NCBI GenBank assembly: GCA_016180525.1
Contig: JACPBB010000001.1
Span: 169,180 to 233,179, forward strand
Origin: Parcubacteria group bacterium
GTDB taxonomy: Bacteria; Patescibacteriota; Minisyncoccia; Phycocordibacterales; UBA2135
Length of the DNA stretch: 64,000 bases
Direction of reading: 5' to 3'
In this document: one piece after another, positions 22,202-28,345 of the stretch
Layout: every line of letters starts with the position of its first letter
Position numbering within the stretch: the first letter of the stretch is position 1
Notes under the pieces: generated by a model
What the model was told of the DNA's origin: nothing
Databases searched by the model: none
What the model saw: only the letters and a program-made list of their open reading frames with translations
Made by a program: the position numbers and the translations under genes

Positions 22202-24244
22202 ATGGCCGACGAAAAACAGAAGCGTCTGTGCGATGAAGTTCGTATTGCGCTTCTTTCACGCATAGATTATTGCGGAGACGGATATCGCAAACGCCTCATG
22301 GAATGTGGATTTAATCTCGCAAAGCTGGAACAAGTCGCTTTCCTTGTGTTGGTGGGTGGGCTTGTCCACAATGAAGGTCTTAAGGAACGAATTCAGGAAG
22401 AGCTTGCGGAAGAGAAGGTGAAGCCAAAGAAAAAGCGACGCAGTCGCGCAGATGTCATTGACCGTGTTTTAAGTGAGGTCGCGGAAGAACTTGCAAAACA
22501 AATTCCAAGTATCACTCTACCCGGTACCGAAAAGAAAATTCGTCTGTATATCATGACCTCCCCAGCCTATGATGGAAAATATGGGGCAGCAATTGCCGAA
22601 AGACTCGCTGTTCTCCGCCCAGACGATATTCGCCACTGGGCAAAGGCAAGCGAGCATTTGCCACTTGAGCCGGCACCGCATGAAAAATTCAAAGAAATTG
22701 CCTGTCTCGTACCGAGGACAACTTCATTCCGTTCAAAATATGACTCCACTGCAGTAGACCGAGTTGTTGAAGACTATCTGAATACTGCGAAAAAGGCGTA
22801 CGCACCTGTCGTTATTGTCGGTTGCTTTAATGTAAATTTTCACAAGCCGGCAGGCGGTGAAAGCTCGATTCATATCATTGGACTTCCCGGATCAAGCCGT
22901 ATTGAAGAGAACCGCGCTTCAGAAAACCAAGTTGGTTTGACAATACTTAGAATCACTAATGACGGAAACCTGTTCGTAAAATCTCACAACTTCAATGACC
23001 TAGTGGTCAGAGAGCGTGAGTCAATCAATATTTCGCCGAAGTATAACAAGACAACACAGCGCGTGCTTGAACAGTTCAAGCACCGGACATGGTGGACGCT
23101 GGGTCTTCTTTCGGAAAAACTTGGCGTACCCCGCGACGAACTCAAGAAAACGCTTAACAGTATTGTAAAGCGACCGAGGCTCAATCCTCCGCTTAAATAT
23201 GACGAATCTTCGCAGCGATATTTTATTCCTCGTCCGTGGATCCAGAAAAATGTTACATATCCCTATCCGTGGCCGACGAAAGAATTTATTGAAGAGCGGT
23301 TTTTGTCTTTTGGCTGCTTGCACGCTCTGTGCCGACATACCGCGCACGAGTTCATGCTTGATGAAATGCCAAAACTTATGCTCAAATATAACATTCATCA
23401 CCTCATTGGTGGTGGAGACTTCATTGAAGGCCGTTCACACGGTCTTCCGGAAAATGGAGAATTGCTTTTTGGCGCCACGTATGACGCGCAAGAGAAGTTT
23501 GCCGCATGGCTTGTGGCAGAAGTCCTTCTCCGAGTCTTTAAAGAGCGTATTCAAAAATTGACGCAAACTGCGGACAAGAAACTGTTTACCGATGAAGCTG
23601 CCGTTCTTAACTTCATCAAAGCGACCCTTCCTGATTTTTGGTACATTCCTGGAAATCATGACGAATGGACTGAAAGAGTCGCGTTTGAAGCTCTGACGGT
23701 GTTCCGTTATGAACTGTTTCAACTCGTTCGTAGGGGTGTAACAGAGACGCTGAAAAACACAGGTCTTGTTGTACCGGCAATCCTTGAACAATTCATTGAA
23801 AGCACTATGGTGAAAATGAGCCCTCTGGACGCCGCTATGCATTCGTCAGGCGTTTCTCTGTCGCTGAACCATCTTCACATGGGCAGAACGCAGACAAAAA
23901 CGATTCGGAGTCAAGCGCTCTTGGGCGCAACGACTGCCGTTATCAACATTCACGCGAATTTTCACACCGCTCTTTCTATGTCTCGCTTTGACCCGAACAT
24001 TGGCCAGCGCGTCGTTCAGCAGATTGGAACACTCAAGCTTCGCTCAGGATTTGAAGACCGAAAAGGAAAAAAAGTTGACTTTGGAGTCGGATATCTCCGA
24101 GTCGGACTAGAGCAGCGTGGTAATGAAAAAGTTATCCTGATGCACGAGGTCGCGCTTTTCGGAGATCCGGCAAAATATCAGAGTATCGAAAATAGAGGTT
24201 TTATTGAATCTTTCAAAAAGAAAATTTTCGGAAAAAAAATCTAA
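22202..24244 (+). CDS. large hypothetical protein with C-terminal calcineurin-like metallophosphoesterase motifs (GD-x2-[DE]…GNHDE…H-x-N-F-H)
   Basis: 680 aa; …HHLIGGGDFIEG… about 65 aa …IPGNHDEW… then …INIHANFH…. The N-terminal ~400 aa have no recognisable family. Preceded by a TTGAGA-N18-TACAAT promoter-like sequence; followed by a strong terminator. Confidence 0.55.
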   Translation: MADEKQKRLCDEVRIALLSRIDYCGDGYRKRLMECGFNLAKLEQVAFLVLVGGLVHNEGLKERIQEELAEEKVKPKKKRRSRADVIDRVLSEVAEELAKQIPSITLPGTEKKIRLYIMTSPAYDGKYGAAIAERLAVLRPDDIRHWAKASEHLPLEPAPHEKFKEIACLVPRTTSFRSKYDSTAVDRVVEDYLNTAKKAYAPVVIVGCFNVNFHKPAGGESSIHIIGLPGSSRIEENRASENQVGLTILRITNDGNLFVKSHNFNDLVVRERESINISPKYNKTTQRVLEQFKHRTWWTLGLLSEKLGVPRDELKKTLNSIVKRPRLNPPLKYDESSQRYFIPRPWIQKNVTYPYPWPTKEFIEERFLSFGCLHALCRHTAHEFMLDEMPKLMLKYNIHHLIGGGDFIEGRSHGLPENGELLFGATYDAQEKFAAWLVAEVLLRVFKERIQKLTQTADKKLFTDEAAVLNFIKATLPDFWYIPGNHDEWTERVAFEALTVFRYELFQLVRRGVTETLKNTGLVVPAILEQFIESTMVKMSPLDAAMHSSGVSLSLNHLHMGRTQTKTIRSQALLGATTAVINIHANFHTALSMSRFDPNIGQRVVQQIGTLKLRSGFEDRKGKKVDFGVGYLRVGLEQRGNEKVILMHEVALFGDPAKYQSIENRGFIESFKKKIFGKKI

Positions 24245-24256
24245 ATAACGTATATT

Positions 24257-24288
24257 AAAGGAGTTCACCTGAACTCCTTTTTTTAATT
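24257..24288 (+). terminator. Intrinsic terminator (AAAGGAGTTCA-CC-TGAACTCCTTT + T-run)
   Basis: Perfect 11-bp stem. Confidence 0.8.
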
Positions 24289-24401
24289 CACAAATGTATT
24301 TTATATGGTGGATGTTTTAAAAAATCATTTTATCTTATCGTCAAGGTTTTTTATTTTTTTGGGATGTTATTATGAACACAGATTAAAAAAAGGGGTGTTT
24401 C

Positions 24402-25190
24402 ATGGCGACAAAATTCGCACTGCATAAAATAAAAGTAATAATGCCAGATGATACGGTGTTTACCTTCTGGTTTGACGGCAACGGAAAAATTACTGCAGGA
24501 AACGGAACATTTGATTCCCCCGTTCCAAATGCCTTCTCGCTCGTACAAGTCAAAGACTGTCCGTCGGCAACACCGACATGCACCAGCGTTTGCTATGTGC
24601 ACAACCTTGAAAAAGCGGAGGCTGAGGTGCACGGCAAATATGCCCACAACAGCGTCACCATTCGTAAGATTCTTCAGAATGCCATTTATCGGCAAGCAAC
24701 TGAATTTGAATTTGTTCATTGGATAAAGAAAAACAATATCCGAGAATTCAGATGGCACGTCTCCGGTGATGTCTTTTCAAAAGAATACGCAAAATTTGTT
24801 GTATCGGTGTGTAATTTAGCTCCGGATGTTTTATTTTGGATTTATACGCGCTCATTTAATTTTGTTGAAACACTGCAAGAAGCACCCAATTTGGTTGTAA
24901 ATCTCTCGGCAGACAGAGACAATTATAAAAAAGCACTTGAAATAAACAGAAAATACGGAGTCCGTATCTGCTATCTTTCTCTTGAAGGAGAGATTCCTAA
25001 GGATTTGCCAAAAGGGTCCGTCATTTTCCCAAACTACACGCTTCGCGGAAGAGATTTGCCCGTTCCTACAGAAGCTCCATTTTGGAAACAGCTTACGCTG
25101 AAACAAAAAAAGATGGTGTGCCCGCCGGATTTCTTCGGCCAAAGCGAAAAACTCCGCTGCGGCCCGTGCCGGAAGTGCATGGTTCATTAA
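24402..25190 (+). CDS. phage Gp37/Gp68 (DUF5131)-like Cys-cluster protein
   Basis: 262 aa; N-terminal C-x6-C-x3-C-Y (…DCPSATPTCTSVCYVHN…), then …WHVSGDVF… and …VLFWIYTRSFN…, resembling the DUF5131 layout W.NP..GC…S.GC..CYA … GDLF … W.ILTKRP. C-terminal CPPD…C-x2-C-x2-C. Assignment from memory of the family pattern. Confidence 0.45.
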   Translation: MATKFALHKIKVIMPDDTVFTFWFDGNGKITAGNGTFDSPVPNAFSLVQVKDCPSATPTCTSVCYVHNLEKAEAEVHGKYAHNSVTIRKILQNAIYRQATEFEFVHWIKKNNIREFRWHVSGDVFSKEYAKFVVSVCNLAPDVLFWIYTRSFNFVETLQEAPNLVVNLSADRDNYKKALEINRKYGVRICYLSLEGEIPKDLPKGSVIFPNYTLRGRDLPVPTEAPFWKQLTLKQKKMVCPPDFFGQSEKLRCGPCRKCMVH

Positions 25191-25214
25191 CCCCGCAATA
25201 GCGGGGTTTTTTCT
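25191..25214 (+). terminator. Intrinsic terminator (CCCCGC-AATA-GCGGGG + TTTTTT)
   Basis: Perfect 6-bp GC stem right after the stop. Confidence 0.8.
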
Positions 25215-25273: not shown

Positions 25274-26152
25274 GTGTCTGAGACAATATCGCAAGAAAAA
25301 TTTCTTACATTAATGCGTTTGTGCTGCACAAAAGAGACAAGCGCGAGTCCCGATACGTGGACTCCTAAAAATCCCCTGTGGGGGCATTGTGCCGCTGTTT
25401 CCCTTGTCGCTCAAAACATGTTTGGAGGTACACTTCTGCGTGTCTCTCTTACAGATACCCCGTTTAAAGCTATGCGGTCACACTACTTCAATAAATTACC
25501 CGATGGAACCGTCATCGATTTTACCAAAGAACAGTTTGGGAAATTATATCCAAGTGGTTTAAAAACAAAGACACGAACCTGCGGAAGCATTCTTGAACAT
25601 GAAAGCACCAGAAACCGCTATAAAAAACTTGCTCTCCGTTTTGCCTATGAAATGACTCAAAATGTGCTCCTTTTGCACCCTTTATATGGGGCATGTTTTG
25701 AAGCCGCACTTGATTCCGGATGCCAAAAACTATGGGTTGGCTCCGTACTCGTGCATAATGGAGTTGTTGTCTCTTCGGGTAATAACCATCCTGTAGAAGA
25801 GCTCGCGCATGTCTGCAAACCAAAGTGTATTCGCTTCAATATTCAATCAAGAACTGAATCAATGATTGGTGCGTGTGGGCACGCGGAAGAATACGCCATG
25901 TGGGAGGCTATCCAAAAAGGAATCCCGCTTTCTGAGTGCGATATGTATGTCGCTATGGTCGGCACAGACGGATTGCCGCGGTTTAGAAGCGACCCTTCTG
26001 TTGGATATACTTGCCTACGATGCGCAACAGCAATGCGTTTGGCTGGTATCAAAAATGTATATATTGATATTGTTGACCATTGGGAAAAAATCAGTATTAA
26101 GGATGCACTACAAAGCGCATTGCAATATGCTCTTGGTGAAAAGAAACTATAA
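25274..26152 (+). CDS. two-domain protein: unknown N-terminal domain + C-terminal dCMP/cytidine-deaminase-like zinc-binding domain
   Basis: The C-terminal half reads …SGCQKLWVGSVLVHNGVVVSSGNN…ACGHAEEYAMWEAI…YTCLRCATAMRLAGIKNVYI…. These are the CDA-fold H-A-E and C-x2-C zinc motifs plus the dCMP-deaminase AGIK.V tail. The N-terminal ~140 aa (…NPLWGHCAAVSLVAQNMFGG…) are unassigned. Confidence 0.6.
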   Translation: MSETISQEKFLTLMRLCCTKETSASPDTWTPKNPLWGHCAAVSLVAQNMFGGTLLRVSLTDTPFKAMRSHYFNKLPDGTVIDFTKEQFGKLYPSGLKTKTRTCGSILEHESTRNRYKKLALRFAYEMTQNVLLLHPLYGACFEAALDSGCQKLWVGSVLVHNGVVVSSGNNHPVEELAHVCKPKCIRFNIQSRTESMIGACGHAEEYAMWEAIQKGIPLSECDMYVAMVGTDGLPRFRSDPSVGYTCLRCATAMRLAGIKNVYIDIVDHWEKISIKDALQSALQYALGEKKL

Positions 26153-26249
26153 GTAATATGTGTTAAAATTCCAGCGTTTGCTGGATTTTTTTGCAAAAAC
26201 ATTTTTTCCCTATATACTATTCACAGATTATTCAAACGAGGCACCAGAG

Positions 26250-27245
26250 ATGATACAGGACGATGTGTGTATTGACCACGAACGTATACAGGCTATTGCC
26301 CGAACTATTGCTTCCATTCCTGAGCATGGTGGAACATTAAATTTCCACAGCATTGAAACACCGCAAGGTGCACGAGTGCTTTCCGATATGTATCCAGACG
26401 TTGATGACGCTCATGCGATTGATTTCTTTTTCTTTGCCATTCTTCATGATCATGGATTCTGGTTTGGAGATGATGCGGGATATGTCAGCCCTCTGTATGG
26501 AACCATTCTTGGGAAAAACAAGGTAAAGGGTTCTGATTTATTGTGGAAGTCATTAAAACGATCGTTTGATAAAAACCCAACCATCGTAACCATAGAGCGC
26601 CTTTTAAAAATAACTCCGGAGGAATTTGCCGATGTGTTTTCAGATGATAACGGACCAATTCCGTTTCCCGACTGGGAGGCTCGGTATATGCTTACAAAAC
26701 AATACGCGCAGTGGTTTCTAGCCGCGCGCATAAAACCCAAAGACATGCTTTTAAAAGTACGCGCCACGCCCAAACCACTCTTGGAATTTAGAAATCTTAT
26801 GCGAGTTGTACCGGGCTATACAGATCCTTTCAATAAAAAAACACTACTCCTTGCTATGGTGCTTTCATTGCGCCCAGAAAAATTTTTATCCGTCACGGAT
26901 ACAGAGTCATGGGACCCAATTATTGATTACCACCTTATGCGTCTTGCGTTACGGATGGGAATAGTGGCTATTCCGAATTCTAACCCACTCTACAAAAGGC
27001 TGACAAAACGAAATTGGGTAAATGCGGATGAAGAATTATTTATACGACAAGAAGTATATCAGGCAATGAAGAAAGTATTGCAGTACTCACGTAAGCCGCT
27101 TGCGTTTGTAGATTATGCATTCTGGTCTGGAAGAAAATTTTGCCCAGAAATGACGGAACCGAATTGCAGAGAGTGTCCATTTCAGAGTGTGTGCGCAAAA
27201 AAAACTGAGTTATTTCAACCGATATTTAGAACGCTCAATTATTAA
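26250..27245 (+). CDS. HhH-GPD superfamily N-glycosylase-like protein with endonuclease-III-type [4Fe-4S] cluster loop and ~190-aa N-terminal extension (possible Qng1/DUF2419-like or divergent DNA glycosylase)
   Basis: Start taken at ATG 26250 (MIQDDVCIDHERIQ…); promoter-like ttgcaa…tatact lies inside the ORF-track 5' extension. HhH-like …VPGYTDPFNKKTLLLAMVL…. …IDYHLMRLALRMGIV… resembles the EndoIII VDTHIFRVCNR segment with the catalytic Asp. C-terminal C-x7-C-x2-C-x5-C (FCPEMTEPNCRECPFQSVC). Confidence 0.5.
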   Translation: MIQDDVCIDHERIQAIARTIASIPEHGGTLNFHSIETPQGARVLSDMYPDVDDAHAIDFFFFAILHDHGFWFGDDAGYVSPLYGTILGKNKVKGSDLLWKSLKRSFDKNPTIVTIERLLKITPEEFADVFSDDNGPIPFPDWEARYMLTKQYAQWFLAARIKPKDMLLKVRATPKPLLEFRNLMRVVPGYTDPFNKKTLLLAMVLSLRPEKFLSVTDTESWDPIIDYHLMRLALRMGIVAIPNSNPLYKRLTKRNWVNADEELFIRQEVYQAMKKVLQYSRKPLAFVDYAFWSGRKFCPEMTEPNCRECPFQSVCAKKTELFQPIFRTLNY

Positions 27246-27299: not shown

Positions 27300-27671
27300 T
27301 TACTTTTCTGCCATATGCTTCATCACTAAAAAGAAGCTTTTGTCGGGTCCATTTTTTATTTCCACTTCATTCGCAACAACAACTCGCTTTCTAATGCCGA
27401 GCATTTCCGTAAGCATAAATACTCCTCCCATATCAAATTTTGAACCATAACTTTTCTCGTCATACCAAATATGCACCTCATCGGCATCTAAAATTGCCTG
27501 AAAATTTGTCCTACAGATATTCACTCCGCCCGTCGGGTCATCTTGTTCCGTATCCAGAGTCGGCCAGTGAACACGGTGTCCTTGTTTTTCAAGCTGCTTT
27601 ACGTACTTTGCAATTTTAGCGTTCGTTTTTTTACTTGCGTTCGTGACCGGACAAACAAGAAATATTTTCAT
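27300..27671 (-). CDS. nucleoside 2-deoxyribosyltransferase-like / DNPH1(Rcl)-like protein
   Basis: 123 aa; MKIFLVCPVT… Rossmann-like N-terminus typical of the family, and a …D…SYGSKFDMGGVFML… segment at the expected position. Family-level only. Confidence 0.45.
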   Translation of the reverse strand: MKIFLVCPVTNASKKTNAKIAKYVKQLEKQGHRVHWPTLDTEQDDPTGGVNICRTNFQAILDADEVHIWYDEKSYGSKFDMGGVFMLTEMLGIRKRVVVANEVEIKNGPDKSFFLVMKHMAEK

Positions 27672-28345
27672 GCGCTCATTCCTACCGAAAAGTACTTTTT
27701 CAATCGCTCCACCGTTTCAGACCAGAGTTTTCTATCAATTTTAGGGTCCATGTCGCGCCAATTAGCACGCTCGGGCCTACCAAGCGCTTCGGCAAGACGA
27801 GTACGGAAATATTGTGCCGGAACACCTTTCGGATCCCATATAATGTCAGTTTTTTGGTCAACACCGGGAGGCCTGGAGAGAAGATATCCATCTCCAATCT
27901 TTCCAACTCCTTCGGGAATTCCATTCGTTACAAAATTAAATTGCTCATATAAAGTTTCGGGAAAGTCCTGCAGCATTTTTGTAGTGAGGTCTACATGAGC
28001 GGGAACTATGTGTAAGTGCGCATGCTTCACTGTCTGTCCGACTATTCCATGTTCAAACAATATTACAGACCGTTCGCCAACAGTAGAACCATTATATGCT
28101 CCATATTCATCGTGAACCAAATCCTCTACGTACAACAACAAATGAGTTAATTTTACTTGCTCTTTTTCTGTAAGTAAATTCATACAGATTACATGACGTT
28201 TCGGGAATACAAGCACATGTCCACCGTCAGTAATCTGCCCCAGTGTCGCGATAACAAAAAATTCATTGGTTTCTGTAATAATACGCTCTTTAAATGTTTC
28301 GCGATTGCAGAACGGACAATCTTTTTCCATACATTTCTTCTCCAA
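27668..28345 (-). CDS. HIT-family nucleotide hydrolase/transferase
   Basis: Histidine triad HAHLHIVP; N-terminal CPFC; overlaps the downstream gene by 4 nt (operon). Confidence 0.75.
   Translation of the reverse strand: MEKKCMEKDCPFCNRETFKERIITETNEFFVIATLGQITDGGHVLVFPKRHVICMNLLTEKEQVKLTHLLLYVEDLVHDEYGAYNGSTVGERSVILFEHGIVGQTVKHAHLHIVPAHVDLTTKMLQDFPETLYEQFNFVTNGIPEGVGKIGDGYLLSRPPGVDQKTDIIWDPKGVPAQYFRTRLAEALGRPERANWRDMDPKIDRKLWSETVERLKKYFSVGMSA

What the first reader, a model, noticed from the sequence alone, without database searches (positions are those of the whole stretch)
24402..25190. Phage Gp37/Gp68 (DUF5131)-like gene in a bacterial chromosome
The C-x6-C-x3-C-Y N-terminal cluster plus …WHVSGDVF…VLFWIYTRSFN… resembles the DUF5131 family, which is mostly found in phages. 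Its function is undescribed. It sits here with its own terminator inside the nucleotide-enzyme island.
Basis: partly seen in the sequence, partly recalled or inferred. Interest (0 to 1): 0.55.

Follow-up and report, generated by a model that had tools for sequence, protein, structure and literature searches.

The report
GP88-family iron-sulfur enzyme, function unknown
The gene is real and encodes a stand-alone member of the mostly phage-borne, uncharacterised protein family GP88 (not DUF5131 as first guessed), which probably is a distant radical-SAM-type iron-sulfur enzyme; it is an interesting unknown but an ordinary member of a catalogued family.

The parts
24402..25190 (+). GP88-family (PF17338) protein gene, 262 aa plus stop codon
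   Evidence: ORF; Pfam GP88 E 1.8e-33, residues 26-260 on profile 6-228/230; PHROG 1392 E 7.9e-30; 841 homologues; AF2 pLDDT 93.1, pTM 0.90
24390..24395 (+). Shine-Dalgarno-like AAGGGG, 7-12 nt before the ATG
   Evidence: Read directly from the sequence; not tested further
24558..24596 (+). Codons for C53-x6-C60-x3-C64-Y65, the proposed site-differentiated [4Fe-4S] (radical-SAM-type) cluster motif in the loop after beta1
   Evidence: C53, C60 and C64 are invariant in 34/34 and 44/44 sequences, Y65 at 90% or more; an intein is inserted directly before the third Cys in homologue P0133; position relative to beta1 and alpha1 comes from DSSP of the model
24747..24770 (+). Codons for F116-R-W-H-V-S-G122-D123 (beta2 and its C-terminal G-D). 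By inference this is the counterpart of the radical SAM 'GGE' SAM-binding motif
   Evidence: R117, G122 and D123 are invariant across the whole family; strand 115-118 in the model; aligned to the IFxxSxxDLF motif of DUF5131 by hhalign
25119..25178 (+). Codons for C240-P-x12-C253-x2-C256-x2-C259, a ferredoxin-like four-Cys motif proposed to hold an auxiliary [4Fe-4S] cluster (or Zn)
   Evidence: Each Cys is conserved in at least 40 of 44 family members, with variable CP-to-CxxCxxC spacing; weak Fer4_2 and DHODB_Fe-S_bind hits in two relatives
25189..25214 (+). Intrinsic-terminator-like hairpin plus T run directly after the stop codon
   Evidence: 8-bp stem with 6 GC pairs, followed by TTTTCTT
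24257..24286 (+). Terminator-like hairpin of the upstream 680-aa gene, which isolates the GP88 gene as its own transcription unit
   Evidence: 10-bp stem, followed by TTTTTAA

Best explanation
The gene encodes a stand-alone enzyme of the GP88 family (PF17338). Its core is a partial (beta/alpha) barrel of the radical SAM type. The three invariant cysteines in the loop after beta1 (C53-x6-C60-x3-C64, followed by an aromatic Tyr) most likely hold a [4Fe-4S] cluster with one open iron. That iron would bind S-adenosylmethionine, helped by the invariant G122-D123 at the end of beta2 and by S169/D171 on beta4, which sit where the SAM-contacting motifs of radical SAM enzymes lie. The four C-terminal cysteines (C240-P…C253-x2-C256-x2-C259) most likely hold a second, ferredoxin-like cluster that delivers electrons or anchors the substrate. 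The enzyme would start radical chemistry on a substrate common to phage-infected cells and to bacteria, with no dedicated partner protein. Phage contexts (early and replication/nucleotide modules) and intein occupancy make a nucleic acid or nucleotide the most likely substrate class. Shown: family membership, Cys conservation, confident fold, closest solved folds are radical SAM enzymes, no conserved partner gene, patchy mostly viral distribution. Inferred: Fe-S binding, SAM use, radical chemistry. Speculative: the substrate. In this Patescibacteria chromosome it is an accessory gene that has been kept intact and is under purifying selection. It was probably exchanged with phages.
Confidence: 0.5

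Rival explanations
1. It is a metal-dependent TIM-barrel-like enzyme that does not use SAM radical chemistry, for example a hydrolase, nuclease, lyase or alkyl-transferase. The Cys groups would bind structural or Lewis-acid Zn, or a redox-inert Fe-S cluster, as in endonuclease III-type or Zn-Cys3 enzymes.
For: Foldseek against the PDB ranks generic TIM barrels first. These include the Zn/homocysteine-binding barrels of methionine synthase and an AP endonuclease (APN1), all at E 0.025-0.1. There is no PF04055 hit. The Cys spacing is noncanonical. Many invariant polar and charged barrel residues (N83, R117, D123, R150, N163, S169, D171, R188, R215) could equally form a hydrolytic site.
Confidence: 0.25
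2. It is a member of DUF5131 (PF07505, phage Gp37/Gp68).
For: The N-terminal motif is similar (C-x6-C-x2/3-C-Y-A) and so are the beta2 and beta3 motifs. A BFVD Gp37/Gp68-like protein is a structural hit.
Against: There is no PF07505 hit at E<=1 for this protein or for 44 relatives, while 8 of 8 control DUF5131 proteins score E<=1e-94-class hits. None hits TIGR04471, unlike 8 of 8 DUF5131 controls. The DUF5131 hallmarks GGESG and FKQWG are absent here. The C-terminal four-Cys motif of GP88 is absent from the DUF5131 alignment.
Confidence: 0.03
3. It is a phage-derived passenger gene (a moron or remnant of a mobile element) with no role in the cell's own physiology. Examples would be a phage counter-defence or host-takeover enzyme left in the chromosome, or a defence gene against phages.
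For: The family is mainly viral. Only about 25 close relatives turned up in 185,579 species genomes, spread across unrelated phyla (Patescibacteria, giant sulfur bacteria, Xanthobacteraceae, Bacteroidales, Leptospirales). Neighbourhoods are variable. The closest relative of the upstream gene (Wolfebacteria, 69% identity) has no GP88 beside it. The gene is its own transcription unit.
Against: The gene is intact and under strong constraint: 40 invariant columns, and dS saturated at dN 0.19-0.34. Its composition matches the host. There are no phage structural, integrase or defence-system genes beside it, and no PADLOC hit. This rival addresses the gene's origin and role, not its chemistry, and is compatible with the best explanation.
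Confidence: 0.2

Closest known systems
Pfam PF17338 'GP88' (gene product 88 of L5-like mycobacteriophages) / PHROG 1392
   Same: Full-length HMM match (residues 26-260 on 6-228/230, 116.8 bits). It shares the family-wide invariants C53, T57, C60, C64, N83, R117, G122, D123, R150, N163, S169, D171 and the C-terminal CP…CxxCxxC motif. The function is unknown in all sources.
   Different: It belongs to a distinct 'full-length' subfamily of about 60 clusters at 50% identity. This subfamily adds an N-terminal beta-hairpin (residues 1-40) and an insertion at about 196-238 (VIFPxYxLRGRD…WW) that typical phage members lack. Phage hits cover only residues ~26-213. The subfamily is mostly on cellular contigs (Patescibacteria), though 7 viral contigs also carry it.
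Pfam PF07505 DUF5131 (phage Gp37/Gp68; relatives of NCBIfam TIGR04471 'radical SAM mobile pair protein A')
   Same: The N-terminal Cys motif is nearly identical, ends in C-Y-A and sits at the same position. The beta2 (xFxxSxxDxF), beta3 (F-x-x-x-T-K/R-R/S) and beta4 (N-hydrophobic-x-hydrophobic-x-x-S) motifs are co-linear. There is a structural hit. The family is also phage-rich and uncharacterised.
   Different: There is no HMM match in either direction. The spacing is x3 rather than x2 in 34 of 44 members. GP88 has a C-terminal four-Cys cluster. DUF5131 instead has GGESG and FKQWG motifs and a longer C-terminal half.
Canonical radical SAM enzymes (QueE 5tgs/4njg, lipoyl synthase 8trw/4u0p, spore photoproduct lyase 4fhc)
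   Different: Sequence identity is 10-14%. There is no PF04055 hit. The motif is C-x6-C-x3-C rather than CX3CX2C. Foldseek does not recover them significantly. SAM use is untested.
Pfam PF23872 DUF7227
   Same: Ten of 44 GP88-family members also match it (best E 2.2e-7). A DUF7227 viral protein is a structural hit (E 5.1e-5).
   Different: The window protein itself does not match DUF7227 at E<=1.

Membership tests
PF17338 GP88 | Score above Pfam's gathering threshold over most of the profile | tested here: met
   116.8 bits against a cut-off of 24.4; E 1.8e-33; profile positions 6-228 of 230
PF17338 GP88 | Family-wide conserved residues (N-terminal C…C…C-Y, FRxHxxGD, YTRS, NLxxxxSxD, C-terminal CP…CxxCxxC) | tested here: met
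   All are present in the window protein and invariant or at least 90% conserved in 44 diverse members
PF07505 DUF5131 (Gp37/Gp68) | Significant match to the PF07505 HMM | tested here: not met
   No hit at E<=1 for the protein or for 44 relatives. Positive control: 8 of 8 phage DUF5131 proteins hit it (best E 1.7e-101; first member 6.7e-94)
PF07505 DUF5131 (Gp37/Gp68) | Characteristic motifs WNPxxGC-x6-C-x2-CYA, GGESG, FKQWG | tested here: not met
   Only the Cys motif has a counterpart, with x3 spacing. GGESG and FKQWG are absent
PF07505 DUF5131 (superfamily-level kinship only) | Profile-profile or structural similarity | tested here: inconclusive
   hhalign P/E 0.0021 but probability 13.4%, 120 co-linear columns. 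BFVD Gp37/Gp68-like hit at E 1.9e-5, TM 0.43-0.46
Radical SAM superfamily | CX3CX2C (or an accepted variant) three-Cys motif in the loop after beta1 | tested here: inconclusive
   Three invariant Cys are in the right place, but with C-x6-C-x3-C spacing. There is no PF04055 hit
Radical SAM superfamily | Partial (beta/alpha)6 or related barrel fold | tested here: inconclusive
Radical SAM superfamily | [4Fe-4S] binding and reductive cleavage of SAM to a 5'-deoxyadenosyl radical | not testable with these tools
   This needs biochemistry. No literature exists on GP88 or DUF5131 activity
Ferredoxin-like auxiliary [4Fe-4S] site | CxxCxxC plus a remote C-P ligand forming one cluster | not testable with these tools
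   The sequence pattern is present and conserved. There are weak Fer4_2 (E 0.092) and DHODB_Fe-S_bind (E 0.0047) hits in relatives.
Known anti-phage defence systems (PADLOC) | Match to a PADLOC model | tested here: not met
   No hit at E<=1

The most novel reading that the evidence does not exclude
GP88, with DUF5131 and DUF7227, is an unrecognised and largely virus-borne branch of the radical SAM superfamily. It would have a noncanonical C-x6-C-x3-C SAM cluster plus a ferredoxin-like auxiliary cluster, and would carry out an undescribed radical modification or repair of DNA, RNA or nucleotides. Phages would use it early in infection, and some Patescibacteria and giant sulfur bacteria would have domesticated it as a single-gene function.
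Probability: 0.3. Interest if true: 0.6.

Novelty: new member of a known kind. Interest (0 to 1): 0.35.

Why it matters
GP88 is a large family: 2,912 clusters at 50% identity match at E<=0.001. It is present in hundreds of sequenced actinophages, including the L5/D29 model phages, yet it has no assigned function and is not annotated as an Fe-S or radical SAM protein. If the assignment proposed here is right, it adds a new motif variant to the radical SAM superfamily. It also gives a concrete, testable hypothesis (Fe-S plus SAM chemistry on nucleic acids) for an early gene of well-studied mycobacteriophages and for an accessory gene of Patescibacteria. For this window the practical result is a corrected annotation: PF17338, not PF07505. 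There is also no evidence that the gene works together with the neighbouring nucleotide-metabolism genes.

Tried and rejected
1. DUF5131 membership was rejected by HMM, with positive controls.
2. Sequence searches against PDB chains found nothing meaningful, whether with the single protein or with the GP88 and DUF5131 profiles. Hits were lithostathine at E 0.044 and ribulose-phosphate epimerase at E 1.8.
3. NCBIfam and PADLOC gave no hits.
4. Guilt by association failed. All-against-all BLAST of ORFs around 24 cellular copies found no shared neighbour beyond antisense shadow ORFs. A Pfam census of 76 flanking genes found only lineage-local synteny: Methyltrans_SAM and XseA in 3 loci, GH130 x2 in 2 loci.
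5. I tested whether the upstream 680-aa protein is a partner, because a homologue is adjacent to GP88 in L008 (E 2e-80). Four other homologues lack GP88 nearby and are instead followed by a ClpX-like AAA_2 gene, so this was rejected.
6. I tested whether that 680-aa protein is related to the metallophosphoesterase-like gene beside GP88 in viral locus L052. Only the GNHD motif matches (E 0.35), so this was rejected.
7. A domain-fusion search found only an intein, N-terminal extensions without domains and sub-threshold zinc-ribbon/ACT hits, with nothing pointing to a substrate.
8. Literature searches for PF17338, GP88, DUF5131, PF07505, DUF7227, the motif spacing, and radical SAM plus mycobacteriophage gave no functional data.
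9. The AlphaFold database (afdb50) fold library was unavailable.
10. A compositional-island test was negative.

Full report
**1. The observation.** The window has an ORF at 24402-25190 (+) of 262 aa with an ATG start. An AAGGGG Shine-Dalgarno-like element lies 7-12 nt upstream. A terminator-like hairpin plus T run follows the stop codon (25189-25208). Another follows the upstream gene (24257-24280), so the gene looks like a separate transcription unit. The gene's GC content (0.434) equals that of the window (0.429), so there is no compositional island.

**2. Family.** The protein does not match PF07505 (DUF5131) or PF04055 (Radical_SAM) at E<=1. It matches PF17338 'GP88' at E 1.8e-33 (116.8 bits, cut-off 24.4) over almost the whole profile. 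It also matches PHROG 1392, of unknown function, at E 7.9e-30. NCBIfam, PADLOC and PDB sequence searches are empty.

The word-indexed search found 841 homologues. The best 120 are 49-100% identical to the query and mostly about 260 aa long. Nearly all of the named ones are from Patescibacteria/Parcubacteria MAGs: Nealson-, Yanofsky-, Vogel- and Lloydbacteria, and Paceibacterota. The exhaustive profile search found 2,912 clusters at 50% identity with E<=0.001. Only about 60 of these match over the full length. The rest match only residues ~40-195 plus the C-terminal Cys motif.

GenBank phages hold 387 records with a relative: 277 Mycobacterium and 99 Streptomyces phages, all annotated 'hypothetical', covering residues ~26-213 at 30-42% identity. 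IMG/VR holds more than 511 loci, 7 of them with the full-length form. Among 185,579 species genomes, a peptide-pattern scan found only about 25 close relatives. They are scattered over Patescibacteria, giant sulfur bacteria (Thiomargarita, Parabeggiatoa), Xanthobacteraceae, Bacteroidales and Leptospirales. The family is therefore mainly viral, and the window protein belongs to a sporadically distributed, mostly cellular subfamily.

**3. Conserved anatomy.** In 34 close homologues, 40 columns are invariant, including eight Cys. Across 44 members spanning the whole family, C53, T57, C60, C64, N83, R117, G122, D123, R150, N163, S169 and D171 are invariant. C240, C253, C256 and C259 are each conserved in at least 40 of 44. 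The N-terminal motif is C-x6-C-x3-C-Y in 34 of 44 members and C-x6-C-x2-C-Y in 4 of 44. The C-terminal motif is C-P-x(10-37)-C-x2-C-x2-C, which is the ferredoxin [4Fe-4S] signature with the C-P ligand placed upstream (this reading rests on established knowledge of ferredoxin motifs).

One homologue, P0133, carries a LAGLIDADG intein: …DCPQSTPTCRAS | C-LASF…HHN | C-YVHNLEK…. Splicing restores the motif exactly, and the third motif Cys serves as the +1 nucleophile. P0164 is a truncated copy with the same intein. Inteins characteristically sit in active or cofactor sites, which marks this motif as the functional core. Against four genomic relatives, dN is 0.19-0.34 with synonymous sites saturated, so the gene is under purifying selection.

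**4. Structure.** AlphaFold2 with the 34-sequence alignment gives pLDDT 93.1 and pTM 0.90. The model has an N-terminal beta-hairpin (5-27), a short beta1 (44-45), the Cys loop, a long helical alpha1 region (58-111), and then beta2 (115-118, FRWH), alpha, beta3 (144-149), alpha, beta4 (164-170), alpha, beta5 (188-193) and beta6 (207-210). Short helices and the C-terminal Cys loops follow.

Foldseek against the PDB finds nothing at E<=0.001 and ranks generic TIM barrels first, with radical SAM entries at ranks 21-49. The structural evidence for a radical SAM fold is therefore real but moderate. Foldseek against viral models finds GP88-domain proteins first, a Gp37/Gp68-like protein at rank 7 (E 1.9e-5) and a DUF7227 protein at rank 11. 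I could not read the model's coordinates, so the geometry of the two Cys groups is unverified.

**5. Relation to DUF5131.** I retrieved real DUF5131 genes from phages using an approximate consensus written from memory as a probe only. The set included phi1026b 'Gp37/Gp68 family protein' and Gordonia phage Zirinka 'DUF5131 family protein'. I took eight diverse proteins and verified them. All hit PF07505 (best E 1.7e-101), one also hits PF04055 at E 0.005, and all hit NCBIfam TIGR04471 'radical SAM mobile pair protein A' below its cut-off.

Their motif is WNPxxG-C-x6-C-x2-C-Y-A. hhalign of GP88 against DUF5131 gives P 0.0021 but probability only 13%. The 120 aligned columns are co-linear and pair the Cys motifs, FRWHxSGDxF with IFxxSxxDLF, FWIYTRS with FQVLTKR, and NLxVxLS with NVWLGVS.

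RadicalSAM.org lists DUF5131 inside the radical SAM superfamily, in the same megacluster as spore photoproduct lyase (PMC9477430). I conclude that GP88 is not DUF5131 but is probably a remote sister family.

**6. Genomic context.** In the window the gene lies after a 680-aa Patescibacteria-specific protein with metallophosphoesterase-like motifs. It lies before a YunG+dCMP-deaminase fusion, a weak Q_salvage-like protein, a weak nucleoside-deoxyribosyltransferase-like protein and a HIT protein.

None of this is conserved. Four Pfam-annotated homologue contigs show unrelated neighbours. All-against-all BLAST around 24 copies finds no shared neighbour. A Pfam census of 76 flanking genes shows only lineage-local synteny.

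Two two-locus coincidences exist. A homologue of the 680-aa protein is adjacent to GP88 in a Yanofskybacteria contig, and a HIT homologue is near GP88 in the closest relative, L017. However, four other homologues of the 680-aa protein have no GP88 nearby and are followed by a ClpX-like AAA_2 gene instead.

In viral contigs the full-length form sits in replication and nucleotide modules: ThyX, MazG-like PRA-PH, an N6/N4 methylase, endonuclease VII, an RNase T-type exonuclease and polymerase-like genes. In cluster A mycobacteriophages it lies in a run of about 18 same-strand hypothetical genes near the right end of the genome. The enzyme apparently needs no dedicated partner, and the only substrate hint is a loose link to nucleic-acid metabolism.

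**7. Mechanism.** The best-supported reading (confidence about 0.5) is a stand-alone, noncanonical radical-SAM-type enzyme.
- The C53/C60/C64 loop would hold a [4Fe-4S] cluster with an open iron for SAM.
- The invariant G122-D123 (end of beta2) and S169/D171 (beta4) sit where the GGE and ribose-binding motifs of radical SAM enzymes lie. This is inferred from topology, not from a residue-level superposition.
- The C-terminal four-Cys motif would hold an auxiliary cluster.
- Substrate: a nucleic acid or nucleotide. This is speculative.

The main rival (about 0.25) is a non-radical metallo-TIM-barrel enzyme. A passenger-gene origin (about 0.2) concerns the gene's biological role and is compatible with either chemistry. 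DUF5131 membership is rejected.

**8. Novelty and verdict.** This is a new member, in a distinct subfamily, of a catalogued family of unknown function. No paper in the searched library deals with it. The corrected annotation, the family-wide seven-Cys architecture, the intein at the motif and the radical SAM-like fold give a clear, testable hypothesis. Nothing here is categorically new, and the local 'island' context carries no functional signal. Interest is 0.35.

Noticed in passing
P0133 (539 aa) and P0164 (382 aa), homologues found: A LAGLIDADG intein is inserted directly before the third Cys of the C-x6-C-x3-C-Y motif (…TCRAS|C…HHN|CYVH…). Splicing restores the motif, and P0164 is an N-truncated copy. 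I found no report of a GP88-family intein in the searched literature.
   Followed up: partly
L049:5769-8099 (viral contig IMGVR_UViG_3300025018_000424): The gene immediately downstream of a full-length GP88 copy is an N6_N4 DNA methylase that also contains a LAGLIDADG_3 domain (E 3e-5). It may be a second intein-bearing gene in the same phage.
   Followed up: no
L054-L126 (viral loci), about 2.5-3.5 kb downstream of GP88, e.g. L055:7544-8704: A DUF932 (PF06067, E 1.4e-46) protein lies on the same strand downstream of GP88 in 59 of 80 viral loci. These include both Streptomyces-phage-like and environmental phage lineages. Most loci belong to one lineage, so this may reflect shared ancestry rather than a functional link.
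   Followed up: partly
window 22202-24244 (+): This 680-aa protein belongs to a small family (80 proteins) that is specific to Patescibacteria and has no Pfam domain. It has metallophosphoesterase-like GDxxxG…GNHD motifs. In 4 of 4 other contigs its homologue is followed by a ClpX/ClpB-like AAA_2 ATPase gene, with a PCMT gene in between in L127. In the window and in L008 it is adjacent to GP88.
   Followed up: partly
window 26160-27245 (+): This 361-aa protein has a weak Q_salvage/QNG1-like match (E 0.0027, below threshold). Its C-terminal C-x7-C-x2-C-x5-C motif (CPEMTEPNCRECPFQSVC) resembles the Fe-S cluster loop of HhH DNA glycosylases.
   Followed up: no
window 25274-26152 (+): A fusion of a YunG domain (PF24585, E 1.9e-20) with a dCMP/cytidine deaminase zinc-binding domain (E 1.7e-9).
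   Followed up: no
window 27668-28345 (-) and L017:1631-2383 (-): A HIT-family protein with a ~100-aa C-terminal extension. A 55%-identical homologue lies 1.1 kb downstream of GP88 in the closest genomic relative (L017). It is the only neighbour shared with that genome. It also gives a weak hit to the PADLOC ThsC HIT model (E 1.3e-5).
   Followed up: partly
L001/L002/L007 (contig JACPGX010000002.1, labelled Candidatus Nealsonbacteria): Here GP88 overlaps the end of the fumarase beta-subunit gene. It sits inside a cluster of TCA-cycle and related genes (fumarase, succinate dehydrogenase, succinyl-CoA synthetase, malic enzyme, POR, methylmalonyl-CoA mutase). That gene content is unusual for a Patescibacteria MAG and may point to mis-binning or an atypical lineage.
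   Followed up: no
window 24351-24758 (-) and 24852-25187 (-): Two antisense ORFs of 135 and 111 aa lie inside the GP88 gene, and similar antisense ORFs occur in homologous loci. This similarity is a by-product of conservation of the sense strand (shadow ORFs), not evidence of genes.
   Followed up: yes
L006, L014, L019 (Vogelbacteria/Paceibacterota-type loci): There is lineage-local synteny: SAM-dependent methyltransferase (PF10672) on the opposite strand, then GP88, then exonuclease VII large subunit. Three of 21 cellular loci show it.
   Followed up: partly
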